DNA from: Trypanosoma brucei
Lineage: Eukaryota
Direction of reading: 5' to 3'
NCBI GenBank assembly: GCA_000002445.1
Contig: CP000068.1
Span: forward strand, 64,001-128,000
DNA: 64,000 bases
Shown in pieces: positions 38,101 through 59,582 of this stretch; positions within the stretch are counted from its first letter, which is position 1, and each line of letters starts with the position of its first letter. Made by a program: the position numbers and the translations under genes. The notes under the pieces were generated by a model that made no database searches, had not been told where the DNA came from, and worked only from the letters and a program-made list of their open reading frames with translations.

Positions 38101-40474
38101 CACCGACTGGTCATGGAGAGTATTTAAATACTGGGAAAAGTGACCCAATGGGAAATATGCCTCATAATCATCCCTGCTCTTTTTAGCCTTTGGTCATGCA
38201 ATAAACCAACGCCCTCTTACAATTCTATGTTTCCTCAATCACAAAGAGTGGCACACAACCCATCCTGTCATATGTCTCTTTGAAACTGTGCTAATGATAC
38301 GCGGCTGCTTCATTATTTGGGCATCCTTTTCTACAATGGGCAATTCAGATTTCCCTGTTTGATACTTTCTCTCTTTCCACATCATCTGTGCTATTCATAA
38401 TGCTCCAAACCTCATCAAATCGCTTACTCGCTGCTTGCATCATCCTCTGTCGTATCCACGAAAAGGAAATCATTCTCACATTCATTTCCTATTGGAGAGG
38501 TGAAGTCTTTTCCTCATCCCGTGAGGTCACCTTTGTTTTCCCTTGTGAGTGTCAAGGAATGCTGTGCCATCGATAATTTGGAAAGGTATTCCCTGTTATA
38601 AATCTCGTCTTCCCTCACACTGAGGCTGCACATTCCTCCCAATTGTATCTTACATCAAAGACAACAAAAAGAATCGACTTGCTTACGGAAGCTGTCACAC
38701 ATCTGAGATACCACACTGTGCTTCGTTGGAGTTCCATTGTGTAGATGTGCTTTCCCAATTGTATTAATAATATGTTGTCAATGTCGTGCTTCCATTGCAA
38801 CTACTGCCGCTGCGCGTGTCAGAAGTGATCTTCTCTTTATGGGATGTTCTATCATTACGTATGGTCTTTTCAGTATGGTGTCATTTTCCGCTTTGTGGTA
38901 ATGGCTATGAACTTCTTCCCCTTTCCTCCAGAGGTTCCTCCCTATGACTTTTCTCACACTGGTAATATCCTTTTCCCAGTTGATAATTATGCATCGTGCG
39001 ACTCTGTGGGTATCGCTTTTGAATTTCTTTGGAAGGTTCCCTCCAAAAAAATTCCACTATTGAGGCTTGCTTTTCGTATGAGTGTGGTATAACATTTTCC
39101 TTTTTTGGGAGCTGTATAATTTCTTTTCCTCCAATGCTGGCTAATTCAGTCCATTGATATTGCAACTGGATACCACTCTGGACGGAGCTTCCCGCAAGAT
39201 ATTATCGAATCCCCATTACAACATGTGTTGTGTTTGTTTGATGGGTTCATCTGTTACCGCATTGTAAAGACGGACCCAAAAACAACATCCGCGTCGGTGT
39301 GTCCAATAGAAATGATGGAAGAGCTCTCCTGTACTGAAATGGCAATGCTTTTTGCGAGTCGTAAACTTACAACAACAAATAAAAGTGCAGTTACATCCTA
39401 TGCTGGCATGCGGTAACGATTTTCCGCCAATGCATAAAAACTCCACATGACGAATTCCCTATTGCCCACATGTTTTAGTCCTCAGTCACACTCACTTTGC
39501 TATTCTATTGGCTCCTAAAACCAATGCCATGATGTACGGATGGCTTTGTGTGTGGTAACTGCAATAATGATAATAATAACTCCTTTCACCAATGAGTATA
39601 TTTTTTGGTTGTAAAAGTGCTCTTGGTGTCACTCCATTTTTCTTTTTTTTAATCCTCAGCTACTGAGGGGCTGTTGTATTTTTTATTAAAGAGTGATGCA
39701 CCGTTTTATTCCCCATCCCTTTTAGGTGACTTCCTCCTGCACAGTTTTTAATTTTTCATTGTAGAATGTTTCTCAAGGTGTTTCCTTTGTGAAGCTTTGG
39801 TCATGCTATTATTAAAGACCACTCAACTCCCTGCTTTCGGGACCTGCTGTTGCATTTATTCCCCTTTAGTTGCTGCAAATTTGTTTATTTGACAAATTGT
39901 ACTGCAATACTTCACTTGAACATATGTGTAACAACGTGTCTCGTTGCTTTGTAAAAATTCAAAAAGAACACATCAGGTGATATTCTTCTGTTCCTACTTC
40001 GTACATTCACATCTCTTCCCGTCAGTTCGGAAACTCCCACACAAACTCACCACTCTGTGAAGATTTGTAGTTTCCGTTAGTGATGGACGTACTCAAGTGG
40101 ACATGTTTGGCGCCTAAAAACTTACTTTCGAAGTTTACACTTTCTTGCAGACAGCTTCAGTCCGAGAGCAAAATGATAGTTAAACATCAACACAAAACGT
40201 AAATCCAAACTCCCATTGACGAGAGCCTTTAAAATAAATACAAAAATGTTCACCCTGCACGTTACGCCCGAAAGTACCTTATAAAAATAACATTAAGCAA
40301 GCATCAACAATTTGAATGGAGCCACAAGGACAATTAATGGCGTATAATATTTCCACTAAACCTTGCGTGGAAACCGTTAAATTGCATCAAGCACCTAATT
40401 TCAATTCCAGTTCCAAAATCATACACACATGTATCTATGTCTGTTCCTTCGTGTTCGGGCACCTGTGATAGTGT
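35117..40474. other. Convergent intergenic gap between the plus-strand gene (ends 35116) and ISG75 copy A (minus strand, 3' end at 40475). It is a candidate transcription-termination / convergent strand-switch region.
   Basis: Orientation converges, and there are no convincing ORFs. Confidence 0.3.
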
Positions 40475-42043
40475 TTAAATATCACTGTCGAAACCTGCTG
40501 CGGTCTTCGTATTTTTGCTTTTAGCATTAGCCTCCTCTATGTTTATATCATCCTTCACCTCAGCCTTCCTACGGCCCCTAATAACAAAGAACACAAGCAA
40601 CCCAAGCAACAGCAAAAGCAAAGGAATTAAAAATATTAACACTTTCGTTGTCCCAATCCAGCCACTCTTGGCCTCGCTGCCCTCATCATCATGGTCAGCG
40701 TTTACGTCGTCCTCTTCACCACTTTCTTTCGACTCCTCTTTCAATTCCTCAGCCAATTTTTCTACATCCTTCTTCAGTTTCTCTTCAGATTCCTCGGCGC
40801 CCTCCTTGTCCCACCGCGCAACTTCTGCATCTTCGGTGGCTTTGACGCGCTCCTCCTCCGCTTCCTCAAATGCCTTTCTCGAATCTTTCACCTGCTTTTC
40901 TGCAGCCTTTTCAGTTGCCTCAGCTTCCTCAACAGCCTCCAGCAACATCTTTTTCTTTTCTTCACTCACCGGCTGACCCGCCTCCTTTGCCTTCTCAGCC
41001 TTCTCAGCTTCCAAGCGCCTGGCCTCCGCCTGTTCCTCAGCAGCCACTCGTCTCGCCTCAGCCTCCTCCAAAGCCTTTCTCGCTTCCTCAGCAGCCTTCT
41101 CAGCAGCCTGGCGTTTCGCCTCCTCCTCCGCCGCCCGCGCCTCTGCTGCTTTTTTCCATTCCAGATACTGTGCAAGAGACTCCCTTCCAATCTGTTGAAA
41201 TCTCTGAGCATAGTGAGTCACCCCCAAGGAATTGCGGACTAGAGTTTCAAGTTTGAGTATCGCATACCTTGCTGCATCGTAGTCCCACCGCCAACTTTCA
41301 AGCAGCGTGCATGGTTTATCGGAGGAGGACGCACTTCTTGACGAATGGCCGCTGCTGCACTCAACAGCATCCCTTGCATCAGCCTTGGGCTTTGCTCGAT
41401 TCCATGCCTCGACTGCCCCCTCCATGTTGGAGAAGGTCACATCAGTTTTTGCAGCCGGAATAGACTTGTACTCGCAATATATAACGTATGCGCGAGCGTC
41501 ATCATGTCCAAAATTTCGATGATAGTCATGTTTATACGCACTGGGATCGCAGTTTGCGTTAGCCATATGGTCAAACGAATCACGGATTGCTTCCTTGTTT
41601 ATACAGTGCCATTTTAGCAACTCCTTGAGAACTTTGCTCGAGTTCGCTGCAGCCCTCTTCGCCTTCTCCCATGCCTCCTCAACGCTCCTTTTCGTTCGGT
41701 TCGCTACACGTTGGACACCACGCATCTGATCCAACATCTTTTGTCCCAGCGCCGCCCTCATATCATCATGCTCTGACACTTTCTGAAAAATTTCTCTCGC
41801 GACCTTCAAATATTTCCAGGATTGCCTCTCTAGAAAGTCTGCTCTATCAGCAACACCGTCAAGCAACTTTTTCATGGTACACAGTGTCAACACAGCTTCA
41901 CCATCAAGTTTCCGCCCATTTATTGTTACATACTGCTTATATGCGACAGGTAAGTTGCTTGCCTTGGACACATCGAGCGCACATATGCCGCAGAGGAGAA
42001 ATACTGTTGCAGTAGTGCGTAATGTAACAGGCATCGTTGACAT
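40475..42043 (-). CDS. ISG75: Invariant surface glycoprotein ISG75-type, copy A (522 aa). It has a signal peptide, a cysteine-containing variable ectodomain, an E/A/K/R-rich coiled-coil stalk, a transmembrane helix and a lysine-containing cytoplasmic tail (RGRRKAEVKDDINIEEANAKSKNTKTAAGFDSDI).
   Basis: I base the family call on length (~523 aa), type-I topology, the coiled-coil stalk and the Lys-containing tail, all of which match my recollection of ISG75. The gene occurs in a multicopy array. Confidence 0.8.
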   Translation of the reverse strand: MSTMPVTLRTTATVFLLCGICALDVSKASNLPVAYKQYVTINGRKLDGEAVLTLCTMKKLLDGVADRADFLERQSWKYLKVAREIFQKVSEHDDMRAALGQKMLDQMRGVQRVANRTKRSVEEAWEKAKRAAANSSKVLKELLKWHCINKEAIRDSFDHMANANCDPSAYKHDYHRNFGHDDARAYVIYCEYKSIPAAKTDVTFSNMEGAVEAWNRAKPKADARDAVECSSGHSSRSASSSDKPCTLLESWRWDYDAARYAILKLETLVRNSLGVTHYAQRFQQIGRESLAQYLEWKKAAEARAAEEEAKRQAAEKAAEEARKALEEAEARRVAAEEQAEARRLEAEKAEKAKEAGQPVSEEKKKMLLEAVEEAEATEKAAEKQVKDSRKAFEEAEEERVKATEDAEVARWDKEGAEESEEKLKKDVEKLAEELKEESKESGEEDDVNADHDDEGSEAKSGWIGTTKVLIFLIPLLLLLLGLLVFFVIRGRRKAEVKDDINIEEANAKSKNTKTAAGFDSDI

Positions 42044-42633
42044 CCGTTAAAACTTATCTGTCACCCTCCTCTGATCACCACTTCCTCAGCTTGTCAGTCT
42101 CAACCTCACGTTACCTTGGCCGTAGAAATATGCAATCAACTACAGTCAAATATCCAAGAGAAAATAAGAAAGGGAAGGGAATCGATAGAAACGACCAAAG
42201 AGTAAAAATATGCGCGATTGAGCAAAGGAAATAATATGCGTATCCAATAGCGGATTTGTTGCAGTTCACCCGAACATGGACAACCTCCACGGCAGTCTTT
42301 CATTACACCCTTCATAGTAGCGCAAGGAATGTATGAATACCCTTAACACATGAAATAAGCAATACGTATGAAAAAAGGCATCAGCACTGGTATCCGCAGC
42401 TACCAATGCGGCCCTACCTCAAACCGGTAGTATGTGGGAAAAGGGTAATAACCTTGAGATGAGCTGCAAGGAACTGGTCAGACCGAAACATTACAAGCAA
42501 CGGTATAAAAAGCAAGAAACGAAAACATATAAAAAGCACCCTTATATCACTTATAGCAACCGATTTCAATTCCAAAATCATACACACAAATGCCTATACC
42601 TGTTCCTTCGTGTTCGGGCACCTGTGATAGTGT
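42044..42633 (-). repeat. Conserved ISG75 intergenic/5'-flank repeat (~590 bp) carrying the polypyrimidine tract and 5'UTR. Copies lie at 42044-42633, 44206-44801, 46374-46790, 48562-48850 (partial), 57149-57423 (partial, plus orientation) and 58993-59582 (plus orientation).
   Basis: The copies are near-identical. For example 42037-42240 vs 44199-44400 vs 46367-46570 vs 48561-48760 match the reverse complement of 57230-57430 and 59390-59590. Confidence 0.85.
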
Positions 42634-44205
42634 TTAAATATCACTGTCAAGACCTGCTGCGGTCTTCGTATTTTTGCTTTTAGCATTAGCTTCCCCTATG
42701 TTTATATCATCCTTCACCTCAGCCTTCCTACGGCCCCTAATAACAAAGAACACAAGCAACCCAAGCAACAGCAAAAGCAAAGGAATTAAAAATATTAACA
42801 CTTTCGTTGTCCCAATCCAGCCACTTTTGGCCTCGCTGCCCTCATCATCATGGTCAGCATTTACGTCGTCCCCTTCACCACTTTCTTTCGACTCCTCTTT
42901 CAATTCCTCAGCCAATTTTTCTACATCCTTCTTCAGTTTCTCTTCAGATTCCTCGGCGTCCTTCTTTTCCTCTTTTGCAGCCTCTGCATCTTCGGTGGCT
43001 TTGACGCGCTCCTCCTCCGCTTCCTCAAATGCCTTTCTCGAATCTTTTGCCTGCTTTTCTGCGGCCTTTTCAGTTGCCTCAGCTTCCTCAACAGCCTCCA
43101 GCAACATCTTTTTCTTTTCTTCACTCACCGGCTGACCCGCCTCCTTTGCCTTCTCAGCCTTCTCAGCTTCCAAGCGCCTGGCCTCCGCCTGTTCCTCAGC
43201 GGCCACTCGTCTCGCCTCAGCCTCCTCCAAAGCCTTTCTCGCTTCCTCAGCAGCCTTCTCAGCAGCCTGGCGTTTCGCCTCCTCCTCCGCCGCCCGCGCC
43301 TCTGCTGCTTTCCTTCTCTCCTCATGCTGTGCAAGAGACTCTTTGTAACCCTCTAGCACTTTCTTAGAGTAGTGAAAAACCCTTAAAGCTAGGGTCGCAT
43401 CCTTCTCGACCTTCGATATTAAATGTGCCGTTACTCTGTAGTTCCAAAGCCAGTTCTCCAGCACTGTGCATGGTCGTCCAGCGGGAGCTGCTTGGTGAGC
43501 GGGTGCGCCTGCTCCACATATCATAACACGAGCGGAGTACGGTTTGGGTTTTACCTGGTTCCATATTTCGAGTGCCCTCTCCATGTTGGAGAACGTCGTT
43601 TGTGTAATGACGCTGTCCACTACTTTGTAGTTGCATAAAATGCTGTATTTATGGGGATCAAGCCTCGAATGTTCATAGTAGTAGTCTCGCTTGTACGCGT
43701 TGGGTAAGCAGTTCTCATTTCGACCGTAGCCAGGAAGGACGTCATGACTCGCCGTCCTGTCAACACAATGCCACGTCAGCACTTGGTCGAGAGCTGCACT
43801 TGCATTTGCCGCCGCTGCCTTAGCCCGCTCTCCTGTGCCCCCCATGTACTTGATTATGCCATTGCCCAGCGATTTCATGTACTGTATTTCCCGAAGCTTA
43901 TTTGAAGGGAATGATAACTCCATTCCCTTGTCATCCGATATTTTACGAAAATTCGCATTCGCATTGTTGACATACATATACGCCTGCTGTTCAAACATGT
44001 CAACCCTGGAGTTCACGCCGTCAAGCATCTTCTTCATTTCGCACAGTGTCGTAGCCCCTTGTCCATCAAGTTGCCGAGCACCTGCTGTTACATATTGTTT
44101 TTGTGCAACAGAGAGCTCCTCCGCCCAAGTCACATCGAGCGCACATATGCCGCAGAGGAGAAATACTGTTGCAGTAGTGCGTAATGTAACAGGCATCGTT
44201 GACAT
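42634..44205 (-). CDS. ISG75: ISG75-type, copy B (523 aa). Its N-terminal domain differs in type from copy A; its C-terminal half is near-identical.
   Basis: As for copy A. Confidence 0.8.
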   Translation of the reverse strand: MSTMPVTLRTTATVFLLCGICALDVTWAEELSVAQKQYVTAGARQLDGQGATTLCEMKKMLDGVNSRVDMFEQQAYMYVNNANANFRKISDDKGMELSFPSNKLREIQYMKSLGNGIIKYMGGTGERAKAAAANASAALDQVLTWHCVDRTASHDVLPGYGRNENCLPNAYKRDYYYEHSRLDPHKYSILCNYKVVDSVITQTTFSNMERALEIWNQVKPKPYSARVMICGAGAPAHQAAPAGRPCTVLENWLWNYRVTAHLISKVEKDATLALRVFHYSKKVLEGYKESLAQHEERRKAAEARAAEEEAKRQAAEKAAEEARKALEEAEARRVAAEEQAEARRLEAEKAEKAKEAGQPVSEEKKKMLLEAVEEAEATEKAAEKQAKDSRKAFEEAEEERVKATEDAEAAKEEKKDAEESEEKLKKDVEKLAEELKEESKESGEGDDVNADHDDEGSEAKSGWIGTTKVLIFLIPLLLLLLGLLVFFVIRGRRKAEVKDDINIGEANAKSKNTKTAAGLDSDI

Positions 44206-44801
44206 CCGTTAAAACTTATCTGTCACCCTCCTCTGATCACCACTTCCTCAGCTTGTCAGTCTCAACCTCACGTTACCTTGGCCGTAGAAATATGCAATCA
44301 ACTACAGTCAAATATCCAAGAGAAAATAAGAAAGGGAAGGGAATCGATAGAAACGACCAAAGAGTAAAAATATGCGCAATTGAGCAAAGGAAATAATATG
44401 CGTATCCAATAGCGGATTTGTTGCAGTTCACCCGAACATGGACAACCTCCACGGCAGTCTTTCATTACACCCTTCATAGTAGCGCAAGGAATGTATGAAT
44501 ACCCTTAACACATGAAATAAGCAATACGTATGAAAAAAGGCATCAGCACTGGTATCCGCAGCTACCAATGCGGCCCTACCTCAAACCGGTAGTATGTGGG
44601 AAAAGGGTAATAACCTTGAGATGAGCTGCAAGGAACTGGTCAGACCGAAACATTACAAGCAACGGTATAAAAAGCAAGAAACGAAAACATATAAAAAGCA
44701 CCCTTATATCACTTATAGCAACCGATTTCAATTCCAGTTCCAAAATCATACACACAAATGCCTATGTCTGTTCCTTCGTGTTCGGGCACAAGAGAAGGTG
44801 G

Positions 44802-46373
44802 TTAAATATCACTGTCAAGACCTGCTGCGGTCTTCGTATTTTTGCTTTTAGCACCGCCTTCCTCTATGTTTATATCATCCTTCACCTCAGCCTTCCTACG
44901 GCCCCTAATAACAAAGAACACAAGCAACCCAAGCAACAGCAAAAGCAAAGGAATTAAAAATACTAACACTTTCGTTGTCCCAATCCAGCCACTCTTGGCC
45001 TCGCTGCCCTCATCATCATGGTCAGCATTTACGTCGTCCTCTTCACCACTTTCTTTCGACTCCTCTTTCAATTCCTCCGCCAATTTTTCTACATCCTTCT
45101 TCAGTTCCTCTTCGGACCGTCCGATGGTATCCCTGTTCTGCTTTGCAGCCTCTGCATCTTCGGTGGCTTTGACGCGCTCCTCCTCCGCTTCCTCAAATGC
45201 CTTTCTCGAATCTTTTGCCTGCTTTTCTGCAGCCTTTTCAGTTGCCTCAGCTTTCTCAACAGCCTCCAGCAACATCTTTTTCTTTTCTTCACTCACCGGC
45301 TGACCCGCCTCCTTTGCCTTCTCAGCCTTCTCAGCTTCCAAGCGCCTGGCCTCCGCCTGTTCCTCAGCGGCCACTCGTCTCGCCTCAGCCTCCTCAAATG
45401 CCTTTCTCGCTTCCTCAGCAGCCTTCTCAGCAGCCTGGCGTTTCGCCTCCTCCTCCGCCGCCCGCGCCTCTGCTGCTTTCCTTCTCTCCTCATGCTGTGC
45501 AAGAGACTCCTTCGAACTTTCTAGGATTTTCTCAGAGTAGCGGTATACGAATAGAGCAACATCCAAATCCCTGTGGAGCCGCGCTATCAAGTGGGTTGCC
45601 ACTTCGTAGCTCCGCATCCAGTTCTCCAGCACTGTGCATGGTCGCCCTGGTGGAGCTGCTTGGTGAACGGGTGCGCCCGCTCCACATATCATAACACGCA
45701 TATGGTACGGCTTGGGCTTTACCTGGTTCCATATTTCGAGTGCCCTCTCCATGTTGGAGAACGTCGTTTGAGTAGTGGTGCTACTGACCACTTTGTAGTT
45801 GCATAAAATGCTGTATTTATGGGGATCAAGCCTCGAATGTTCATAGTAGTAGTCTCGCTTATACGCGTTAGGTTCACAATTTGCATTTGGAGTAGAACTG
45901 TATGAGGACTCGCGACTCTCCGTCCTGTCAACACAATGCCATTTTAGCACCTCATCGAGAGCTGCGCTTGCATTTGCCGCCGCCTTTTTAGCCCTTCCTT
46001 CGGTTGCATTCATGAGATATGCGATGTCGTCAAGCCTCGTCTTCATGTACTGCATTTGCTGATGTTGATCTCCAGATAGCGATGCTGCCATTACCTTGTC
46101 ATCCGATATTTTACGAAAATTCGCATTCGCATTGTTGACATACATATAGATTTGTTGTTCAAATGTGTCAACCCTGGAGTTCACACCGTCAAGCAACTTT
46201 TTCATGGTACACAGTGTCGCCGCAGCTTCACCATCAAGTTGCCGCCCATGTGCTGTCACATACTGTTTTTGCGCAACAGAGAGCTCCTCCGCCCAAGTCA
46301 CATCGAGCGCACATATGCCGCAGAGGAGAAATACTGTTGCAGTAGTGCATAATGTAACAGGCATCGTTGACAT
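44802..46373 (-). CDS. ISG75: ISG75-type, copy C (523 aa)
   Basis: As for copy A. Confidence 0.8.
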   Translation of the reverse strand: MSTMPVTLCTTATVFLLCGICALDVTWAEELSVAQKQYVTAHGRQLDGEAAATLCTMKKLLDGVNSRVDTFEQQIYMYVNNANANFRKISDDKVMAASLSGDQHQQMQYMKTRLDDIAYLMNATEGRAKKAAANASAALDEVLKWHCVDRTESRESSYSSTPNANCEPNAYKRDYYYEHSRLDPHKYSILCNYKVVSSTTTQTTFSNMERALEIWNQVKPKPYHMRVMICGAGAPVHQAAPPGRPCTVLENWMRSYEVATHLIARLHRDLDVALFVYRYSEKILESSKESLAQHEERRKAAEARAAEEEAKRQAAEKAAEEARKAFEEAEARRVAAEEQAEARRLEAEKAEKAKEAGQPVSEEKKKMLLEAVEKAEATEKAAEKQAKDSRKAFEEAEEERVKATEDAEAAKQNRDTIGRSEEELKKDVEKLAEELKEESKESGEEDDVNADHDDEGSEAKSGWIGTTKVLVFLIPLLLLLLGLLVFFVIRGRRKAEVKDDINIEEGGAKSKNTKTAAGLDSDI

Positions 46374-46902: not shown

Positions 46903-48561
46903 CTATATTGACTGCTCCTTTTCATGCTTCACGGTGGGAGTAATGCGAGGCAACTCCACAAAGGCGTCAATGGCCGGCGTATCCTTAACCGCTCTTTCCT
47001 CGCTAAAAAGGCCGTCGTTGTGGATGTTGTGATACAACTGCATTTCTCTCCGCCCACGGATGACAAAGAAGAGAAACGACCCGAGCAGCAAGAGTAAGAT
47101 AATGAAACGCACTAATAATCGCGTGATTCTATGGTTGTCACGTTGATGGGCATCAAACACTTCATCACCTTTGTCGTATTTGCTGACTCTCGCGAGGCTC
47201 TGGTACACCTCCTTTTTCAAGTCTGCACACGATCGCAAGGTGTCCTCTGCCTCCCACTGTGCAATAATCGCCGCATCATCAGCCTTCATCATCTCTGTTT
47301 CGGCTCCTTCCAGTGCCTTCTTTGATATTTCTGCCTCTTTCTCGACTTCCCTCAACCTAGACTTTGCATCCTTCTCTGCCTGTATTTTTTTCCTGCTCTC
47401 CCCAGCCATCAGAAGGGCGGCCGCCTCAAGCTTCTCCTTGTTAGCCTTCGCCTCCTCCAGTGCCTTGCTCAATTCTTCGATTTTCGTCGTCACTTCCCGC
47501 AGTTTGCTCTCAGCTTCCCTCACGGCATCGGCATCCCGGCTCCTGGCTTCCGCATCCCTTTTAAGTAATAGCCACCTCTTTTCAACATCTTCGAAGACAT
47601 TTCTCGCCTCATTGACAACTCTACCGGCTGCCTGATGTTTCGACCTTTCCTCTACGGCACGTTCGTTTGCGGCCTTATCCTCCTCATGGACGCCCTCGGC
47701 CGACGTCCCTTCGCCCAGCGAGAGCATTTCTGCATATTTTCGGATTCTGACAGCAACGTGGGTTAAATCGTAGAGCCTCCTCATAGAATACCTTGATGCG
47801 TTGTAATCCTCTAGCCAAGATTCACGCAGCATGCATGGCACCAGCGTTTCAGTGGCTTCGTCCCTCCACTGACCGTTCCAACATTCAGATAGACGCGTTA
47901 GGTTGGGTTTGGGCTTCACAAAATTCCACTTGTCAAGTGCCCTCCCCATCGTTTCAAACGATGCAACAGTATCTCCGCTGCGGATAACCTTGTAGTCACA
48001 CAGAATACTGTTGTTCCTGCGATCATTCACGTGATAATAGTGGAACCGCTCCCTTGAAAACGCGTCAGGATCACAGTTAGCGCCAGTGCTATAATTATAA
48101 GGAGACCCTCTCATCTTTTCAACATCGATGCAGTGCCATTTAAGTATATCCGAAAGAAGTCTGCTAGCATCCAAAGCTGCCTCTTTAGTTCGCTTATAAG
48201 CCGCCTCGATGTGCTTTCTAACGGCCTCAACAAGCTCTCTGGTCATAAGTATCTCCTCCTGTTTTTTCTTCGTGAGAGATGTTCTTATGTTATCGCTAAT
48301 TGTTACATTCGAGAGTACGGTCTTCGCTTTACTCAGCTGCGACAACGCCTCACTCTCAAGGAAAAACGCCCTTTCGGAAACGAGGTCAACAATTGCTTTG
48401 ATAACACATATCGACCGTGCACCCTCACCATCAACTTTTTTTCCTCCGCTGGTGACATACGATTTCCACCATACTAGCTCCTCCGCCCAAGTCACATCGA
48501 GCGCACATATGCCGCAGAGGAGAAATACTGTTGCAGTAATGCGTAATGTAACAGGCATCAT
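46903..48561 (-). CDS. Divergent ISG75-like paralogue, copy D (552 aa). It shares the signal peptide and 5' flank with the array, but has a distinct ectodomain, a distinct coiled-coil, and a different cytoplasmic tail (RGRREMQLYHNIHNDGLFSEERAVKDTPAIDAFVELPRITPTVKHEKEQSI).
   Basis: The first ~30 codons and the upstream repeat are shared with copies A-C. The body is less than 40% similar to the other copies by eye, but the topology is the same. Confidence 0.7.
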   Translation of the reverse strand: MMPVTLRITATVFLLCGICALDVTWAEELVWWKSYVTSGGKKVDGEGARSICVIKAIVDLVSERAFFLESEALSQLSKAKTVLSNVTISDNIRTSLTKKKQEEILMTRELVEAVRKHIEAAYKRTKEAALDASRLLSDILKWHCIDVEKMRGSPYNYSTGANCDPDAFSRERFHYYHVNDRRNNSILCDYKVIRSGDTVASFETMGRALDKWNFVKPKPNLTRLSECWNGQWRDEATETLVPCMLRESWLEDYNASRYSMRRLYDLTHVAVRIRKYAEMLSLGEGTSAEGVHEEDKAANERAVEERSKHQAAGRVVNEARNVFEDVEKRWLLLKRDAEARSRDADAVREAESKLREVTTKIEELSKALEEAKANKEKLEAAALLMAGESRKKIQAEKDAKSRLREVEKEAEISKKALEGAETEMMKADDAAIIAQWEAEDTLRSCADLKKEVYQSLARVSKYDKGDEVFDAHQRDNHRITRLLVRFIILLLLLGSFLFFVIRGRREMQLYHNIHNDGLFSEERAVKDTPAIDAFVELPRITPTVKHEKEQSI

Positions 48562-49215
48562 TGGAAACCATCAAAACTTATCTGTCACCCTCCTCTGATC
48601 ACCACTTCCTCAGCTTGTCAGTCTCAACCCCACGTTACCTTGGCCGTAGAAATATGCAATCAACTACAGTCAAATATCCAAGAGAAAATAAGAAAGGGAA
48701 GGGAATCGATAGAAACGACCAAAGAGTAAAAATATGCGCGATTGAGCAAAGGAAATAATATGCGTATCCAATAGCGGATTTGTTGCAGTTCACCCGAACA
48801 TGGACAACCTCCACGGCAGTCTTTCATTACACCCCTCGTAGTAGCTGCAAACCTCGGCATGCTATGAGCCATCCGGCCACCGCAGCTCCCCTTGGTGATG
48901 GTGTTGAGTGCGTTGAGCTAAAGTGCCTTTACAAATAAAGGCCAAAGTGACCATTTCAGAAGATAGCACAAGGCCTGTCAAATCATAAAAAAGAGCAGGA
49001 GCACGGGAAATGGCTGCTGAGAAAAAAGACAAAGAGGTGTATAGATAAAAGGGGGAAGCAGCTAGATGGTGGAACGCTTTACGACTGTGGCAGCCGCAAG
49101 GGTGCAGCAAAGTCTATGATGTTTGAAAAACGGTTGCGGCACATACCACGAAGCATCAACAACAGTGCTGGGTGGCGAAACACAAAGTGACAGAGTCGCT
49201 CGCGGTTTACTGTAT

Positions 49216-49238
49216 CACACACACACACACACACACAC
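49216..49238. repeat. (CA)n microsatellite
   Basis: Read directly from the sequence. Confidence 0.95.
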
Positions 49239-52200
49239 TGACAATGCGCGGTAGGCACGGAAGTACGTGAGTCTTGTACAACCGGTCACTCGGCCAAAAA
49301 TGCTTCCACCTCAGTGAGACACTTTGCTGTTTCCGTGTACCGATCACGGAAACGAGTTTTGCCTAGCGGACGGGGCCGCGGCAATTTTACGTTACCCACC
49401 TCTGTGACCTAACTAGTTTTGCATAACCACCACACTGAGCGGTTGAATTTTTTTTCGAAAAGGTTTCTTGATTTCTCAGTACAGCTTGCTATGGCATACC
49501 CTCCCCACAAGATAATTTTTTTTCTTCGAATTATATTCTCTGAAAATTATGGCAAACGTCGTGCTACGAAAACATACGTGCATATATGGCAAAATAAGGA
49601 TGAAAGCGAATCAATGGTAATCGACGTGGTCGCCATTTACGCACCTAAACGAAAAACAGTAGGAATATCTTTGCGCAACCTTTTTTAGAAGGTAAATAAT
49701 GGGAAACAAAAACAAAACAGCGGTGACTCAACGCCACAATCATAAAAGCTAATGATAATAATATATCGGGGTCAACAGCCCGAAGCTGCAGGCCGCAGTG
49801 AATCCCCCAATGCGGAAGGCATCCAAACATAAGCAGTAAAGTGTTGTTTACCTCCCAGTAATTTTAATCAAACCGAGCCGTCGACTAAGTATCTTACCAC
49901 GCCAAAGGCAAGACGTTTGCTGTACGGAATTCAACGAAAATAATGGGCTCCTTCACTGCTGTCTCACAACCTCCCGTATACCTCAACTTCAGGAACGTTG
50001 AAGTGCAAAACGAATGTTTAGCAAATAACCGAGGAACTAGTAAGTATCGCGTCTCTGTTTGAATCAGCTAAAAGTTTTTTTATGTGCTGCTGACGGGGAA
50101 AAAGGGAAGGAAATCAAAATCGATCCATTGCTTCATGCGCACTTGAATGTGTATAAAGATTCAGACAGGTTTACAACAATGTGTCAACGATATGCTGAAC
50201 AAGCTATTCCCTTTTTACTAACGTATATTGCTGCTGGGGGATGTTCGCTATCCAACAAGGAAGCATCCAAATTCACCGCCAGAAAGTAGTGTCTATGCTT
50301 TTGAGCGAGCAAAAACATTCAACAGTAGTGAACAAATACATGCGACCCTGCGGAACACATCACATGTCCCGCCTCCCGACGCACGAAACTAAAGGCAAAA
50401 CCATCACATGATGGTTCTTATGACCGTCTGCTACGCAACCACTCTGTATAGCAAAAGCCATGTGGGAGAAACAACCGCACATCACCGAACGTCATCGCCG
50501 AAACCGCACCCCATGCCCACGTGTCGATACATGAATTTGTGTTCTCTTCGTTAGTTTGTGGTAAGAAATCAAATGGTAATTTTTTTTCCTCCAACAAGTA
50601 GAAATTTATGGGACCTGCATAGGATTCGCAGCGCACGCTTCCTTAGCATTGTGTCTTCCCTTCCTCCTATAAGCGCTTAGAGACCCGCTAAACCAACTCG
50701 CTGAGCGACATATACAAATGCTTTGATGTGTATAGTCCAGACTAGGAAGATACGGGCCTTATGCAAACCTGCTACGGGTCAAGAAATACCGAGCAGTCAA
50801 GACGATTATGCCCCCTGGTGATGAAAGGCGGCTAGCACTAACATGTGGATCGACAGCCCAGGAGGGGGAAAGGTGTTTAACATACAGAACTCACCCCCTT
50901 TTAGGTCAGAAACGCAAAGGTCAATTGATTCAATTAGTTCCTTCCCGTAGGAAGAAACTATGTAAAGTCATTGTAATGCTGTGACGGTCCAGGGGAAAAA
51001 ATAATCTTACGAGAAAGGAGGAGGATCTACTCCTTCCGCAGTGCCTTGTGTACGTTACTTTATTGTTTCCTTTACTTCATATTAGCTTCTCTAGTGAATA
51101 CGTTGCGGTGACCATGCCAAATAAATAGTCACGCAGCTGTAAACCCACTACCTCAATCAAAAATTGGGCAAGTTAAAACGGAAACAGAAGGAAAGCAAAT
51201 AAAGCAGAGAGTAATGCAAAATTCACGACTACCCACCTTTAAAATGTTAGCAACCTAATCTGGGCTTCATCACAGCACCAACCAGCGCCGGACACAGCCT
51301 CGTTGCCATTTTGCATAAACCTCTGCAGCCAAAAAAAAAAAATCTACCGCAAATAAAACATGGAGCAGGCAACAGTGCACGACCAATGCAGCCGCACAGA
51401 AGGTCAATCTCTCTCGAAAGATAATTAGTAAAAATACTTTTTCCCACAACAATTTCACGTAGCACAAACACACGTGCGTGCGTGCGTCCAAAGAGCAAAG
51501 GAGAAATAGAAACGAACAGGTATACTTGCCGGAATCCCAAAGTAACATGGGTCCATCAATCACCCTGACGGTGCGACCGCGGCCAGACCGTTCAACGTAC
51601 CAATAGAAAGCTCCATCCAGCTTTAGGGTAACGTACAAGTTCCACTCACACTAACAAAAGGATTGCCAACCACAACAATCGCACGGTACCATAAACTCTC
51701 CCACTATTATTGTTTGTTTTTGGCTTCTTTTTTTTTTTTTACGAAGCTCACAGAGCTCACCGTGCCGACAGGAGAACAAGAGGGAACGTCTGCCTCCCAT
51801 TCCGTGCACACAACAGATAGACACGTCCCTGTTAAGGTTACCACCAGAGCTAATCCTTCACATACGTAAACCCTCCACGCCACGAAGTTAGAGTCTGCCG
51901 TATGCTCTGAGTGAGATCCCCGGATGAGTTAACCTCCATGGTAAATGGTCCCTCCCCAAGTCCCTCGAGAGACCTCACCGCGGTGTCGAGAGCCAGTATC
52001 TCTGGGAAAAGGAAGAAAATACCTACCACTCGTGCCGAATGGTTAGATGCAAACTCCTTTGGACGGGGGGGAAGAAAGAAAAAACTTACCGGCGGTCATC
52101 AACGAAAGTTTTAAAAAAAAAAAATGAAATCGTGTCCCAAGCAACGGCCATCGTCGCGGCTTCCTTAGGCGGCAGAAGCTCAGAGATTTGGAGGGAACCC

Positions 52201-52391
52201 CGTCGTCCCCACCGCCCTTCACGCACGATAAGCAATGTTACGTCCCGCACCATCCTGTAAGAAAATTACGGAAGAAGAATCCAACTCCCTTTTAAGGCGT
52301 AGAACTCCGAAACGATCAGCCTTCAATGAGAGTAGAAGCCTCCACCACGCACGCCTGCACTGAAGTCGACATCTCGGCAGCGAAGAGCCGC

Positions 52392-52447
<56 letters not shown>
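52392..52447. repeat. Compound (CA)14(TA)14 microsatellite
   Basis: Read directly from the sequence. Confidence 0.95.
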
Positions 52448-55400
52448 CTACTTATTCATACCGCTGCCCCCCCTGTAGTCAGGCAGGCCACGCAGTGAAT
52501 CCCGCCGCGTGATAATAAATTTTTAAGAAGTGGAAACGGGAATGTGCCAGCACCGCCTTTTTAAGGGCCACATGGTCGGGGCCGCGACTCTGTTAGCTCA
52601 TACGCTCCGACAAGCGGATTTACGCCGTCGTGCTAATACCGTTCCGGGAAGGATTGCAGTGTGACTGCGGGCTGGGGGAGGTCATGCTGGGTTGAGCGGT
52701 GGGCTACGTGTCTAGACTGTCCGTTAAAGCTGAGGAAGCTGGGGGTCGTTTGCTTCCTACCGATAAGAATGTACTGTGGCGGAACGGAGTGGCTTGGGGG
52801 AAAGTGAGGGAAGGGGGAGGTTGCCCTTTTTTTTTTTTCTTGATTTGTCAGTACGCCAGGGGGGAGGGGTGATAAAACTCTACCGGCTTCGGTTGAACTC
52901 TACAGGAGAGGGAAGTCTGAAACAAATTCTGCCCCAAGGAGCCCGCGGCACCGACGCGCACGCGCTTGTTAATTTGTAAAAAGCCAAAAGAAGAATGAAG
53001 CCACGGGGGGGGAGGGACGCCGGTGACGCAGGTAGCGACATGCGCACCTCTATGAGTAGGTGTGCAAATGCGCGAATGCGTTACCTATCTGCTCCTCTCA
53101 TCGAAACACTTGTGTCATGACTCGGGCATTTGCTTACCTTGGGGTCTTTTTGGAAGTGTTTGAAAGTACACCTTTTCTCCGCTCCTAAGTTAAGCCCCTT
53201 CCCTCCTTCAACGGGATCCACTCCAAGTTTCAACGACGGCCCGGCATGCAGGTCTGCAGGTGATAGACAGGTAAGGGGAATTAGCCCTCACAACTGTGGC
53301 AATCTGGGCGGGGTTTAACGTCCACGAAGAGAGCTGAACTAATACATCTGCGGATATATGTATCAGGGGGCGCTTTCTCCTCCTTTACTGGTGCCACGAC
53401 TCCTCTAACCATGAAAAAAAAAGGAGAAAGGATGCCAGATTTCTGCCTTGCTTGTTGAACTAGTTGACCCTCCATTTGGCTGGATTCGGGAACTGGTGGT
53501 TGAAAATATATGCGTATCTGGATATCGAAAGAGCACAGTGGAGGATGAAAAGGGGGGCTTACCCAATGTTATTTTTTTAAACTTTAACACTATTCGGATC
53601 GAAAGGCCCTTGGGGGGAGAGGGGAAATGAAATGTAGGGGAACATGGAGGGAAAGTACATGCCTGTGGGAGTTGTTTCCCCTCTGCCTGATTCTTCTCGT
53701 TGAGTGAAAAAAGATGTAGTGGTGGTCGCTCCCACTAACAGCGGGAGAGCAGCGAAGAAAAAACTTATTTTGCTCCATTTCAATACTGCGGATTAGTTGT
53801 GAGAAATATATATATTTATATATGCATTACCTATTGACAGTGCGCTGGTGAGGTGCAGGGGTGACGACATGCTCGCTGAGAGTTGAAAGTAGCGCTCCTA
53901 CAGAGAACTTCTTTCCGTAAAAGTTAAAGTGTGGGGTGGGAAAAGGGACACAAGGAAATCAGCAGCAGTACTGGGGATAAACTTGCGGGTTTAAACCTTG
54001 GCGCTGTTTCAAGCGTCTAGAGACGCTGAACGATTTGCTCGTAGTTATGCGTATTATTTTTCTCTCATATGTGAAGGGTGTATGTTGTATGCAGTTCATT
54101 CCTCAGCTACACATGATGTTGGTTTGTGGCCGCGCCTGGACACCCCCACGCTCGTATACAAGGAAAGGGAAAGGAACCAATATGCCAGCACTTAGTTTGC
54201 TGCCAATATGTTTGAGTATTTCTGCCTCTGTATCGACACGAATAAAGGGCAGTGAAATGAACGCCATACACCACTTTCAGTAACGAAATTCCTCTAAATA
54301 GGGGGAAATACGTTGGGAGAGGTAGTTGTGAGGCTATAAATTAAATATTTCTGTGTCCTCTAGTTTTTATGCATCCCTCATATACAAAGCTACGTATTGT
54401 CACCAGCCTCCATGTAGCCCATGGTATTTGCCCCCGTTTCACGTTTTTTAAAGCGTTTCTCAATGCTTCTTCTAATTTTACAAATGTGTGTCTTTGCGTG
54501 TGAGCTGTTTCGGTGAGTGGTGCATACATGGGAAGGAAAATATATTAACGTCGGGGAAATGCAATGGGTTTTTTTTTTCTTGCTATACTGTTTGCTCATT
54601 TCTCCCTCCACATAATTTGTAAATGGGCACAGTCAGCTGGAAGCTGACTCTGACTTTTTTTTGCCATTGATTCCTCGAATTACGTATGGAGGTGACACCC
54701 CATTTTGTCAAAGTATTGTACCCAGAGGCTTTTTTTGTAAACATGCACATTGCCGTGAGCCTCATATCCCGCATCACAAAGGAACAAGGGGTGGACTGTT
54801 CACTTTGCCCTCACCGTGTTCTGTGTAGTTGAACGGACACACGATACTGAAACATTGGGGATAATTATAATGATAGTGATAATAACAACGAAACGTGCTC
54901 AGAAGCCTTTTTGTATGGGAGGGCTTCTGGAATTCTGTCAAGCGCATTGACTCATATCCTCTTGGTTGGATTGCTGCCTATTCTTGTACGTTAATTTCGT
55001 GTAATGCTAACCATTCTACTGGCTGCTGTCTTGATGTTGTTGGAGCTCCAAACCTCTGCAACATCATGACCTCCTCACGTCACCTGTCTGGATCGTGGGG
55101 CAGGCTGTTACTTGCAAAAAGAATATCAACAATTCGTCACGCAACTAACGGCTGGACAAAATAAGCCAAGAAAAAACGGTAAGGGAAGGTGCGAGTTCGG
55201 GAGTGACGTATGCTGATTGTCGTGAGACAATAACGTTTCTCAGCAATTCCGGAAAGTATGAATGTTGAGGGAATTCCTTAACACACAGATGGGGATGGAA
55301 GTTGGTTTTTATTATTATTATTATCATTACTATTTTGAAGGGGGAGAAAGACGTCCACAGTGATTTTGAATACAGTGGGATACATCTCCCATGCCTACTA

Positions 55401-57257: not shown

Positions 57258-57330
57258 ATTTTTACTCTTTGGTCGTTTCTATCGATTCCCTTCCCTTTCT
57301 TATTTTCTCTTGGATATTTGACTGTAGTTG
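57258..57330 (+). promoter_or_regulatory. Polypyrimidine tract (cgattcccttccctttcttattttctctt) plus downstream AGs: a putative SL trans-splice acceptor for ISG75 copy E. The same element is present in every flank repeat.
   Basis: The pyrimidine run is followed by AG dinucleotides 95-100 bp upstream of the ATG. Such tracts direct SL trans-splicing in trypanosomes. Confidence 0.5.
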
Positions 57331-57423
57331 ATTGCATATTTCTACGGCCAAGGTAACGTGGGGTTGAGACTGACAAGCTGAGGAAGTGGTGATCAGAGGA
57401 GGGTGACAGATAAGTTTTAACGG

Positions 57424-58992: not shown

Positions 58993-59582
58993 CCACCTTC
59001 TCTTGTGCCCGAACACGAAGGTACAGATATAGGCATTTGTGTGTATGATTTTGGAATTGAAATCGGTTGCTATAAGTGATATAAGGGTGCTTTTTATATG
59101 TTTTCGTTTCTTGCTTTTTATACCGTTGCTTGTAATGTTTCGGTCTGACCAGTTCCTTGCAGCTCATCTCAAGGTTATTACCCTTTTCCCACATACTACC
59201 GGTTTGAGGTAGGGCCGCATTGGTAGCTGCGGATACCAGTGCTGATGCCTTTTTTCATACGTATTGCTTATTTCATGTGTTAAGGGTATTCATACATTCC
59301 TTGCGCTACTATGAAGGGTGTAATGAAAGACTGCCGTGGAGGTTGTCCATGTTCGGGTGAACTGCAACAAATCCGCTATTGGATACGCATATTATTTCCT
59401 TTGCTCAATCGCGCATATTTTTACTCTTTGGTCGTTTCTATCGATTCCCTTCCCTTTCTTATTTTCTCTTGGATATTTGACTGTAGTTGATTGCATATTT
59501 CTACGGCCAAGGTAACGTGAGGTTGAGACTGACAAGCTGAGGAAGTGGTGATCAGAGGAGGGTGACAGATAAGTTTTAACGG

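What the first reader, a model, noticed from the sequence alone, without database searches (positions are those of the whole stretch)
40475..46373. Domain-specific concerted evolution in ISG75: homogenised stalk/TM/tail, mosaic ectodomains
Across copies A, B, C, E and F, the C-terminal ~250 aa are almost identical at the DNA level. This covers the E/A/K/R coiled-coil (...EARAAEEEAKRQAAEKAAEEARKALEEAEARRVAAEEQAEARRLEAEKAEKAKEAG...), the transmembrane helix and the Lys-bearing tail. The N-terminal ~270 aa fall into at least three types with patchwork sharing. Copy E's middle segment matches copy C (SYSSTPNANCEPNAYKRDYYYEHSRLDPHKYSILCNYKVVSSTTTQTTFSNMERALEIWNQVKPKPY), then switches to copy B (SARVMICGAGAPAHQAAPAGRPCTVLENW). 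Copies A and F are inverted twins but differ in two internal patches. This indicates frequent gene conversion with a boundary near the start of the coiled coil, so the host-exposed domain diversifies while the trafficking module is conserved.
Basis: seen in the sequence. Interest (0 to 1): 0.6.

Follow-up and report, generated by a model that had tools for sequence, protein, structure and literature searches.

The report
ISG75 gene array: constant blocks, mosaic ectodomains
This is the Trypanosoma brucei ISG75 surface-receptor gene cluster. Recombination keeps the 3' halves and spacers of the genes almost identical while old, very different outer-domain versions persist and swap pieces; the pattern is real, but its core was published for this same locus in 2007.

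Summary
The window is T. brucei TREU927 chromosome 5, locus Tb927.5.350-400, with six ISG75 genes: A-D on the minus strand and E-F on the plus strand.

In A, B, C, E and F, codons 1-25 and about 289/298 to the end are 98-100% identical in DNA. Codons 26-297 are 51-87% identical and clearly mosaic (PHI p<=0.001; run and MaxChi tests p<=5e-4).

Synonymous divergence between ectodomain types is saturated (pS 0.70-0.78) and falls to 0.015-0.045 from nt 892. Copy D is diverged throughout. The uniformity therefore comes from recombination, not protein constraint.

The interpretation needs three corrections:
- The homogenised tract is a continuous ~1.37 kb block: 3' half of the CDS, intergenic spacer, 5' UTR and signal peptide. 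It alternates with ~0.79 kb cassettes and is not a "trafficking module".
- The ectodomain types are ancient (38-43% amino-acid identity, dN/dS 0.13-0.43) and shared with T. b. gambiense and T. equiperdum. They are reshuffled, not newly diversified.
- The C-terminus carries its own polymorphic patch.

Jackson (2007) already reported the inverted segmental duplication and the main conversion tracts. Novelty is low.

The parts
40475..42043 (-). ISG75 copy A (type Ia ectodomain), 522 aa; last gene of the minus-strand array
   Evidence: ORF. Pfam PF11727 E=1.8e-15. Exact match to TREU927 AAZ11150.
42634..44205 (-). ISG75 copy B (type IIa ectodomain), 523 aa
   Evidence: ORF. PF11727. E=8.8e-241 to the solved ISG75 ectodomain 8rd2. 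Ectodomain ~100% identical to gambiense g2/g4/g6 and equiperdum e1/e3/e4.
44802..46373 (-). ISG75 copy C (type II variant with unique hypervariable segments), 523 aa
   Evidence: ORF. Exact match to AAZ11152. 100% identical to type IIb at nt 462-603 but only 69-72% identical to every other copy at nt 301-461 and 761-891.
46903..48561 (-). ISG75 copy D, the divergent 552-aa paralogue at the head of the minus-strand array. Its CDS is diverged throughout, but its 5' flank, signal peptide and distal 3' flank match the other copies.
   Evidence: PF11727. pS 0.6-1.0 against all copies along the whole CDS. Flanks 98-100% identical.
57424..58992 (+). ISG75 copy E (type IIb-like mosaic; inverted counterpart of B), 522 aa
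   Evidence: ORF. Exact match to a TREU927 protein. B/C block mosaic. 92-100% identical to gambiense type IIb over nt 189-891, unique at nt 73-188.
59583..61151 (+). ISG75 copy F (type Ib ectodomain; inverted counterpart of A), 522 aa
   Evidence: ORF. Exact match to AAZ11155. A-F pS is 0 over nt 382-750 but ~0.6 in the patches at nt 241-381 and 751-873.
41183..41968 (-). Variable ectodomain cassette of A (codons 26-~287)
   Evidence: Boundaries from MaxChi. Cassette identities 51-87%.
43342..44130 (-). Variable ectodomain cassette of B. It contains HV1 (aa ~95-127, window ~43825-43923) and HV2 (aa ~252-297, window ~43315-43452).
45510..46298 (-). Variable ectodomain cassette of C
57499..58284 (+). 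Variable ectodomain cassette of E
59658..60443 (+). Variable ectodomain cassette of F
41969..43341 (-). Constant block: 3' part of B (from ESLAQ: linker, TM, tail), 3' UTR and spacer, then 5' UTR and signal peptide of A
   Evidence: 1373 bp, 96.7-97.9% identical to the two other complete blocks. pS 0.015-0.045 over nt 892-1200.
44131..45509 (-). Constant block: 3' part of C, spacer, then 5' UTR and signal peptide of B
   Evidence: 1379 bp, 96.7-97.9% identical.
58285..59657 (+). Constant block: 3' part of E, spacer, then 5' UTR and signal peptide of F
   Evidence: 1373 bp, 97.9% identical.
42946..42983 (-). Polymorphic patch inside the otherwise constant C-terminal region (alignment nt 1223-1260, aa ~408-420), shown here for B
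   Evidence: At least three haplotypes, which reassort relative to ectodomain type across strains.
40248..44399 (.). Left arm (A+B) of the inverted segmental duplication
   Evidence: 94.3% identical over 4178 bp to 61379-57230. Described by Jackson 2007.
57230..61379 (.). Right arm (E+F) of the inverted segmental duplication
48562..57423 (.). ORF-poor 8.9 kb segment between the two divergently oriented arrays; inverted in the T. b. gambiense DAL972 assembly
   Evidence: No ORF >=130 aa that does not overlap a flanking ISG75 gene. Opposite alignment orientation in DAL972 relative to the A-C block.

Best explanation
The locus is an array of ISG75 genes (the T. brucei receptor for IgG Fc, also implicated in suramin uptake). 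It is built from two alternating kinds of DNA.

1. Constant blocks of ~1.37 kb. Each runs from the 'ESLAQ' codons (nt ~864) of one gene through its E/A/K/R-rich linker, TM helix, Lys-bearing tail, 3' UTR and spacer, and on through the 5' UTR and signal peptide (to nt 75) of the next gene.
2. Variable cassettes of ~0.79 kb that encode the helical-bundle ectodomain.

Homologous recombination between tandem and inverted copies (gene conversion or unequal exchange) keeps the constant blocks near-identical, including at synonymous and non-coding sites. Inference: conversion tracts that start in the constant blocks stop where homology collapses, because cassettes of different types are only ~51-56% identical. 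The boundary is therefore largely self-maintaining, probably reinforced by selection to keep functionally distinct ectodomains.

Within a type (78-87% identity) tracts can run into the cassette and produce the B/C/E mosaics. Between types only very short patches are exchanged (nt ~105-155).

The cassette types (Ia, Ib, IIa, IIb, C-type, D) are ancient lineages. Two helical segments, HV1 (aa ~95-127) and HV2 (aa ~252-297), remain as islands of old divergence even between copies that are otherwise identical.

Shown: the pattern, its statistical significance, the step in synonymous divergence, and the sharing of types between subspecies. Inferred: the recombination mechanism, homology-limited tract ends, and selection for ectodomain diversity.
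For: Identity of the locus. Pfam PF11727 hits, a match to solved ISG75 8rd2 at E=8.8e-241, exact TREU927 protein matches and the locus description in PMC9896412.

Step in synonymous divergence.
- Inter-type pS is 0.70-0.78 in the ectodomain, 0.07-0.12 in the C-terminal part and 0 in the signal peptide.
- In 90-nt windows the A-B and A-C comparisons give pS of 0.5-1.1 in nine of the ten windows over nt 91-897 (A-C is 0.23 in the first) and 0-0.08 in the three windows from nt 898 to ~1142. From nt 1143 the windows reach 0.17-0.30 around the polymorphic patch and 0.15 in the tail.
- Over nt 892-1200, pS is 0.015-0.045 among the five copies but 0.74-0.77 against D, with pN 0.38. The C-terminus is therefore not intrinsically constrained.

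Non-coding homogeneity. The 5' flank is identical for 531 nt (A, B, F), ~403 nt (C), ~190 nt (E) and ~250 nt (D). The 3' spacers are ~100% identical. Complete constant blocks are 96.7-97.9% identical, against 51-87% for cassettes.

Mosaic structure. Searches give the statistical tests. Nearest neighbours differ between segments.

Cross-genome evidence. Ectodomain types recur at 99-100% identity in DAL972 and T. equiperdum, while C-terminal patch and tail haplotypes reassort against ectodomain type. A genome-derived type I/type II chimera, P0003, exists.

Age of the types. Types I and II share 38-43% amino-acid identity, against 25-35% to T. congolense homologues.

Structure. The AF2 model has one continuous helix over aa 253-355 that crosses the boundary at aa ~298.

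Independent prior analysis of the same array reached the same gene-conversion conclusions (PMC1855330).
Against: - No direct evidence of ongoing conversion. T. b. brucei, gambiense and equiperdum are too closely related to show genome-specific homogenisation, and C-terminal variants are shared between them.
- Direction and timing of individual events cannot be assigned. E's 'C-then-B' mosaic largely equals type IIb, which already exists in other subspecies.
- Donors for the A/F and C hypervariable patches are not in the window.
- The homology-barrier explanation for the boundary is inferred, not tested.
- pS in saturated, hard-to-align patches is imprecise.
- Many cross-strain sequences (Q1W* accessions) appear to be cloned amplification products, to judge by their GenBank-only records (an inference). 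They could contain in-vitro chimeras.
- Repeats in the DAL972 and T. equiperdum assemblies could be misassembled.
Confidence: 0.8

Rival explanations
1. Frequent gene conversion actively diversifies the host-exposed ectodomain under immune or host pressure, while selection conserves the stalk/TM/tail because it is the trafficking module.
For: - The mosaic is significant.
- Emes & Yang 2008 reported 16 ectodomain codons with omega ~4.
- The TM and tail are similar in a T. congolense homologue, P0052. That is consistent with some protein-level constraint on that small part.
Against: - Average dN/dS is 0.13-0.43, and pN/pS is ~0.5 even in the hypervariable patches.
- The types are ancient and conserved across subspecies.
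- The homogenised tract covers UTRs, spacer, signal peptide and ~170 aa of extracellular linker, with synonymous sites identical.
- D's C-terminus is free to diverge.
- The published site-model test did not partition for recombination.
Confidence: 0.25
2. A small number of old chimeric events, with no ongoing concerted evolution. A constant 3' module and spacer were joined once or a few times to pre-existing divergent ectodomains by unequal crossover or segmental duplication. The copies have simply not had time to diverge.
For: - C-terminal variants and ectodomain types are shared between subspecies, so no event can be dated as recent.
- The A+B / F+E inverted duplication is a discrete segmental event.
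Against: - The same constant block flanks at least six very different cassettes, including D, whose flanks alone are identical. That needs several independent events.
- C-terminal patch and tail haplotypes reassort against ectodomain type in different strains.
- A-F has pS=0 across 369 nt lying between patches with pS~0.6.
- Array copy number and orientation differ between strains.
Confidence: 0.15
3. Purifying selection on the protein alone explains the identical C-terminal halves.
For: The TM and cytoplasmic tail have a known role: ubiquitylation-dependent turnover (cited in PMC9896412 and PMC11065263).
Against: - Synonymous sites and non-coding flanks are also identical.
- D's C-terminus differs at pN 0.38-0.47.
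Confidence: 0.02
4. Assembly artefact: collapsed or chimeric repeats in the reference sequence.
For: Tandem near-identical repeats are error-prone in assemblies. The DAL972 and T. equiperdum copies contain frameshifted ORFs.
Against: The same constant C-terminus and the same ectodomain types appear in three independent assemblies, in many independently cloned sequences from five taxa and in the crystallised construct.
Confidence: 0.02

Closest known systems
[quoted passage not shown]
   Same: This is the same locus and the same sequence. That paper reports four things:
- a divergent copy at the 5' end of the array (= D);
- the opposite-strand pair as a segmental duplication of Tb32.3 and Tb32.4 (= B+A versus E+F);
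- a significant conversion tract to Tb32.2 at 408-603 bp (p=1.2e-11), matching my C=E run at nt 408/462-603;
- a tract at 136-164 bp between the pair, matching my E=F run at nt 141-155.
   Different: In the passages I could read, it does not describe several points:
- the step in synonymous divergence at nt ~864-894;
- the contiguous constant-block / cassette layout;
- the coincident HV1/HV2 islands;
- that D shares its flanks with the other copies. The paper says divergent copies generally have remodelled spacers.
ISG65 array mosaics in T. b. brucei / T. b. gambiense (Jackson et al. 2010, PMC2854126)
   Same: A sister family (same Pfam PF11727) in tandem arrays. PHI and GARD show recombinant mosaics and subspecies-specific recombinants; 31 of 35 arrays tested were mosaic.
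   Different: A different chromosome and gene family. ISG75 is not listed in the part of the table I could search.
Two main ISG75 groups in Trypanozoon (Tran et al. 2006, Parasitology 133:613)
   Same: My types I and II probably correspond to the two groups. The Q1W* sequences used here probably come from that study, judging by dates and taxa (an inference).
   Different: The paper is not held in the library. Only its title was verified, through reference lists, so its treatment of domains could not be checked.
VSG segmental gene conversion (mosaic VSG formation) in T. brucei
   Same: It works alike. A variable N-terminal helical-bundle domain is flanked by conserved upstream sequence and a conserved C-terminal/3' region that supply homology for recombination, and mosaics form between related donors (established knowledge; mentioned in PMC7015903).
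   Different: ISG75 has no 70-bp repeats, no telomeric expression site and no monoallelic switching. All ISG75 copies sit in one or two polycistronic units, and most are expressed together (PMC9896412).

Membership tests
ISG75 (Pfam PF11727, ISG65-75) of Trypanosoma brucei | Significant match to the ISG65-75 family profile | tested here: met
   A, B and D score 52.9-57.4 bits against a cut-off of 25.1.
ISG75 (Pfam PF11727, ISG65-75) of Trypanosoma brucei | Near-identity to characterised ISG75 proteins or the solved structure | tested here: met
   B against PDB 8rd2 'Invariant surface glycoprotein': E=8.8e-241 over aa 29-468. A, C, D, E and F are exact matches to annotated TREU927 75 kDa ISGs.
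ISG75 (Pfam PF11727, ISG65-75) of Trypanosoma brucei | Type I membrane architecture: signal peptide, ectodomain, one TM helix, short Lys-containing cytoplasmic tail | tested here: met
   Read directly from the translations. The AF2 model has a helix at aa 467-497. The tail RGRRKAEVKDDINIEE.. contains 5 Lys. No dedicated signal-peptide or TM predictor was run.
Concerted evolution by gene conversion in a tandem array | Paralogues homogeneous at synonymous and non-coding sites in one region while diverged elsewhere | tested here: met
   pS is 0.015-0.045 over nt 892-1200 against 0.70-0.78 in the ectodomain. Flanks are identical.
Concerted evolution by gene conversion in a tandem array | Statistically significant mosaic tracts or breakpoints | tested here: met
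   Longest-run permutation p=2e-4. PHI p<=0.001. Triplet runs p=5e-5. MaxChi p=5e-4. GARD and RDP themselves were not available.
Concerted evolution by gene conversion in a tandem array | Paralogues within a genome closer to each other than to their orthologues in a related genome | tested here: inconclusive
   C-terminal variants are shared among TREU927, DAL972 and T. equiperdum rather than being genome-specific. The taxa are too closely related to decide.
Diversifying (positive) selection on a host-exposed domain | dN/dS > 1 in the ectodomain or in defined sites, after allowing for recombination | tested here: not met
   Pairwise Nei-Gojobori dN/dS is 0.13-0.43. In the HV patches pN/pS is ~0.5. 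Site models were not run here. The published omega ~4 for 16 codons did not partition for recombination.
Coiled-coil stalk | Experimentally or computationally supported coiled-coil oligomer | not tested
   AF2 predicts long single helices at aa 253-355 and 362-438. SAXS and HDX-MS in PMC11065263 describe this region as an intrinsically disordered or conditionally folding linker. No coiled-coil predictor was run.

The most novel reading that the evidence does not exclude
The two helical segments HV1 (aa ~95-127, start of helix 2) and HV2 (aa ~252-297, bundle part of helix 3) stay as islands of ancient divergence (pS ~0.6) in both type I (A versus F) and type II (C versus B/E), while the DNA between them has been homogenised to pS=0. 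On this reading they would be co-adapted specificity determinants of the IgG-Fc receptor. The array would then encode a maintained panel of receptors tuned to different host immunoglobulins, with recombination constrained to preserve HV1-HV2 pairings.
Probability: 0.1. Interest if true: 0.6.

Novelty: already known. Interest (0 to 1): 0.2.

Why it matters
ISG75 is an abundant bloodstream-stage surface receptor. It binds IgG Fc and mediates suramin uptake. It has also been used as a diagnostic antigen and tested as a vaccine antigen.

Knowing that the array carries a few ancient, stably maintained ectodomain types on a recombinationally homogenised backbone has practical uses:
- Guide RNAs, RNAi triggers and antibodies directed at the constant block will hit all copies except D.
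- Reagents against the ectodomain will be type-specific.

For evolution, the locus is a clean, small example of homology-limited concerted evolution. It does not change current understanding, because mosaicism and gene conversion in this array and in other T. brucei arrays are already published.

Tried and rejected
- A MAFFT alignment of copies with 1.5 kb flanks mis-registered neighbouring tandem units. It was replaced by separate flank alignments and a codon alignment.
- Hudson-Kaplan Rm came to 35. It is inflated by saturation and homoplasy between types, so it was not used as an event count.
- PHI on the C-terminal part alone was not significant (p=0.49, 32 informative sites). Evidence for reassortment there comes from cross-strain haplotypes instead.
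- The second word-index homologue search, with an ectodomain profile, returned one protein and was useless. The exhaustive representative search supplied the T. congolense homologues.
- Tran et al. 2006 is not held in the library. No paper citing PDB 8rd2 was found.
- The Table 2 text of the T. b. gambiense genome paper has no ISG75 row that I could find.
- tRNA, Rfam and tandem-repeat scans of the window found nothing relevant.
- Purifying selection alone and assembly artefact were both considered as explanations and rejected; see the rival explanations.

Full report
WHAT THE WINDOW IS

The region holds six ORFs of 522-552 aa. A (40475-42043), B (42634-44205), C (44802-46373) and D (46903-48561) lie on the minus strand. 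E (57424-58992) and F (59583-61151) lie on the plus strand.

A, B and D (the copies scanned) match Pfam PF11727 (ISG65-75). B matches the solved ISG75 ectodomain 8rd2 at E=8.8e-241. A, C, D, E and F are exact matches to annotated 75 kDa invariant surface glycoproteins of T. brucei brucei TREU927, on a 1,608,198-bp contig. This is therefore the chromosome 5 ISG75 locus, Tb927.5.350-400, as described by Makarov et al. 2023 (PMC9896412). The finding's coordinates cover only A-C.

CHECKING THE OBSERVATION

The codon alignment of A, B, C, E and F has 530 variable columns out of 1569:
- 1 variable column in nt 1-72 (signal peptide);
- 16-53 per 60 nt across nt 73-890;
- almost none from nt 901 onwards, except a patch at nt ~1201-1260 (23 sites) and the tail at nt 1501-1560 (9 sites).

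The conserved C-terminal part is therefore about 225-234 aa rather than ~250, and it contains a polymorphic island.

Relative to B and C, E is a clean block mosaic (runs test p=5e-5):
- C-like at nt 189-295;
- B-like at nt 333-461;
- C-like at nt 462-603;
- B-like at nt 657-~1250;
- C-like at nt 1253-1520.

A and F belong to a 4.2 kb inverted segmental duplication: A+B at 40248-44399 against F+E at 61379-57230, 94.3% identical. They differ in three patches, at nt ~134-153, ~241-380 and ~751-870.

The pattern is well beyond chance:
- Longest-run permutation tests give p=2e-4 for 7 of 10 pairs.
- PHI gives p<=0.001 for the whole CDS and for the ectodomain alone.
- MaxChi places the boundaries at nt 75 and nt 861-894, p=5e-4.

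WHAT THE HOMOGENEITY MEANS

Nei-Gojobori estimates separate selection from recombination.

| Comparison | Region | pS | Other |
|---|---|---|---|
| Type I (A, F) vs type II (B, C, E) | ectodomain | 0.70-0.78 (saturated) | dN/dS 0.13-0.43 across all ectodomain pairs with finite dS |
| Same pairs | signal peptide | 0 | - |
| Among the five copies | nt 892-1200 | 0.015-0.045 | - |
| Five copies vs D | same 309 nt | 0.74-0.77 | pN 0.38 |
| Five copies vs D | whole CDS | diverged throughout | - |

The C-terminal region is therefore not intrinsically constrained. Its uniformity in five copies must come from sequence exchange.

The uniformity also extends into non-coding DNA. The 5' flank is identical for 531 nt in A, B and F, ~403 nt in C, ~190 nt in E and ~250 nt in D. 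The spacers downstream of B, C and E are ~100% identical, and D joins them about 200 nt after its stop codon.

In a tandem array these pieces are contiguous. Each block runs from 'ESLAQ' (nt ~864) of one gene to 'ALDV' (nt 75) of the next. The three complete blocks are 1373-1379 bp long and 96.7-97.9% identical. The intervening 786-789 bp cassettes are 51-87% identical.

The accurate description is therefore constant blocks alternating with variable cassettes. It is not a conserved trafficking module. Most of the conserved coding part (aa 298-466) is extracellular.

STRUCTURE

An AlphaFold2 model of B has moderate confidence (mean pLDDT 60.5). It predicts helices at aa 48-98 and 101-146, a low-confidence Cys-rich region at aa 147-252, and one continuous helix at aa 253-355. 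A further helix covers aa 362-438, and the TM helix lies at about aa 467-497.

The boundary at aa ~289-298 is about where helix 3 leaves the three-helix bundle. It is not a break in secondary structure.

AGE AND DISTRIBUTION OF THE ECTODOMAIN TYPES

I recovered the orthologous loci of T. b. gambiense DAL972 (L001, L003) and T. equiperdum (L002). The types found there are as follows:
- Type Ia (A) recurs at 98-99% identity (g1, e5).
- Type IIa (B) recurs at ~100% (g2, g4, g6, e1, e3, e4).
- A further type, IIb (g3, g5, g8, e2), is 100% identical among those copies.
- Type Ib (F) occurs in T. equiperdum clones P0002 and P0021.

E is 92-100% identical to IIb over nt 189-891 and is unique only at nt 73-188. 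C equals IIb at nt 462-603 but is only 69-72% identical to everything else at nt 301-461 and 761-891. The "E = C then B" mosaic is thus largely an existing, widely shared haplotype. Which copy is the recombinant cannot be told from this window.

An exhaustive profile search found T. congolense homologues. Types I and II share 38-43% amino-acid identity, against 25-35% for T. brucei versus T. congolense. Types I and II cluster together with 88% bootstrap support. D's position is unresolved.

The ectodomain diversity is old and retained. It is reshuffled, not freshly generated.

HYPERVARIABLE ISLANDS

The A-F patches at nt 241-381 and 751-873 have pS ~0.6 and pN ~0.3. The 369 nt between them has pS=0. 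Point mutation since the duplication cannot produce this. Either old divergence survived homogenisation there, or sequence was imported from donors absent from the window.

The same two regions are where C is unique. I call them HV1 (aa ~95-127) and HV2 (aa ~252-297). Their co-variation within TREU927 is suggestive. Some IIa/IIb sequences from other strains break it (P0028, P0036, P0038), although several of those may be in-vitro chimeras.

THE C-TERMINUS ALSO RECOMBINES

The patch at nt 1223-1260 has at least three haplotypes. In TREU927 and DAL972 one haplotype travels with type I. In contrast, e5, P0016 and P0002 combine a type I ectodomain with the type II patch, and P0037 does the reverse. 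Tail variants (EEANAKS / EEGGAKS / IGEANAKS; GFDSDI / GLDSDI) assort independently. P0003, a genome-derived T. equiperdum protein, is type I to aa ~62 and type II after that.

MECHANISM

Shown:
- the mosaic;
- the step in synonymous divergence;
- contiguous constant blocks;
- types shared across subspecies;
- reassortment.

Inferred:
- Homologous recombination between tandem and inverted copies homogenises the constant blocks.
- Tracts terminate where identity collapses to ~51-56% between types, and penetrate cassettes only within a type (78-87% identical). This fits the known dependence of T. brucei homologous recombination on substrate identity and its suppression by mismatch repair (my own knowledge, not tested here).
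- Selection for distinct receptor ectodomains plausibly helps maintain the cassettes. ISG75 is an IgG Fc receptor (Mikkelsen et al. 2024, as cited in PMC13186567).

COMPARISON WITH WHAT IS KNOWN

Jackson 2007 (PMC1855330) analysed this exact array as 'Tb32'. That paper reported:
- the divergent 5' copy;
- the opposite-strand pair as a segmental duplication of Tb32.3 and Tb32.4;
- a conversion tract to Tb32.2 at 408-603 bp (p=1.2e-11);
- a tract at 136-164 bp between the pair.

These correspond to my C=E run (nt 408/462-603) and my E=F run (nt 141-155).

Other prior work:
- Jackson et al. 2010 showed that mosaics are the rule in T. brucei arrays, using ISG65 as the example.
- Emes & Yang 2008 claimed 16 positively selected ectodomain codons, without partitioning for recombination.
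- Tran et al. 2006 defined two main ISG75 groups. Only the title was verified.

My additions are quantitative:
- the step in synonymous divergence;
- the constant-block / cassette layout, including D's shared flanks;
- the ancient age of the types;
- the coincident HV islands.

I therefore rate the finding as already known, with low interest.

SIDE OBSERVATION

Relative to the A-C block, the 8.9 kb ORF-poor segment between the arrays aligns in the opposite orientation in DAL972. Gene arrangements also differ:
- 4+2 here;
- 3+5 in DAL972;
- at least 5 on the A side in T. equiperdum, with a type IIa gene occupying D's position;
- 5+1 in Lister 427.

This is what recombination between inverted ISG75 copies would produce. 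Misassembly cannot be excluded.

Noticed in passing
window 48562-57423; L001 980-9705: The 8.9 kb ORF-poor segment between the two divergently oriented ISG75 arrays aligns in the opposite orientation in T. b. gambiense DAL972, relative to the A-C block. In T. equiperdum it has the TREU927 orientation. Gene arrangements differ between strains: 4+2 here, 3+5 in DAL972 and 5+1 reported for Lister 427. This is consistent with inversion by recombination between inverted ISG75 copies, or with misassembly.
   Followed up: partly
window 46903-48561 and flanks: Copy D is diverged from all other copies along its entire CDS (pS 0.6-1.0) and has a longer, unrelated cytoplasmic tail. Even so, its ~250 nt 5' flank, its signal peptide and its 3' flank from ~200 nt past the stop codon are 98-100% identical to the other units. 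In T. equiperdum a type IIa gene occupies D's position, with D's upstream flank. The homologous Lister 427 copy was reported to be barely expressed (PMC9896412).
   Followed up: partly
window 52392-52447: A (CA)14(AT)14 microsatellite lies in the middle of the ORF-free inter-array segment. It sits exactly where the alignment to DAL972 breaks into two blocks. The segment is probably a divergent strand-switch (transcription start) region.
   Followed up: no
window 15857-19567 and 21265-24888 (minus strand): Two receptor-type adenylate cyclase genes (GRESAG4-like) of 1236 and 1207 aa lie upstream of the ISG75 locus. Each has two periplasmic-binding-protein-like domains and a cyclase domain.
   Followed up: partly
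window 33653-35116 (plus strand): A 487-aa ORF with an N-terminal hydrophobic signal-like sequence and many N-X-S/T sites has no Pfam match. It is conserved next to the array in DAL972 (L001 21276-21572, partial).
   Followed up: partly
window 46349 (codon 9 of copy C): The only variable site in the first 72 nt of the five homogenised genes is an Arg-to-Cys change in C's signal peptide. A second TREU927-derived entry (P0006) has Arg at this position.
   Followed up: no
P0003 (T. equiperdum genome protein); P0014, P0037, P0040 (cloned sequences): Inter-type chimeras exist in other strains. P0003 has a type I N-terminus to aa ~62 and is type II after that. P0014 has a type II N-terminus on a type I body. 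P0040 is type IIb with the type I junction YLEWK. The cloned sequences could be in-vitro chimeras.
   Followed up: partly
window 40001-48000 and 58001-62000: Strong strand-specific GC skew tracks the ISG75 coding strand: -0.13 to -0.28 over the minus-strand genes and +0.23 to +0.27 over the plus-strand genes. It reflects the purine-rich E/A/K/R codons.
   Followed up: no
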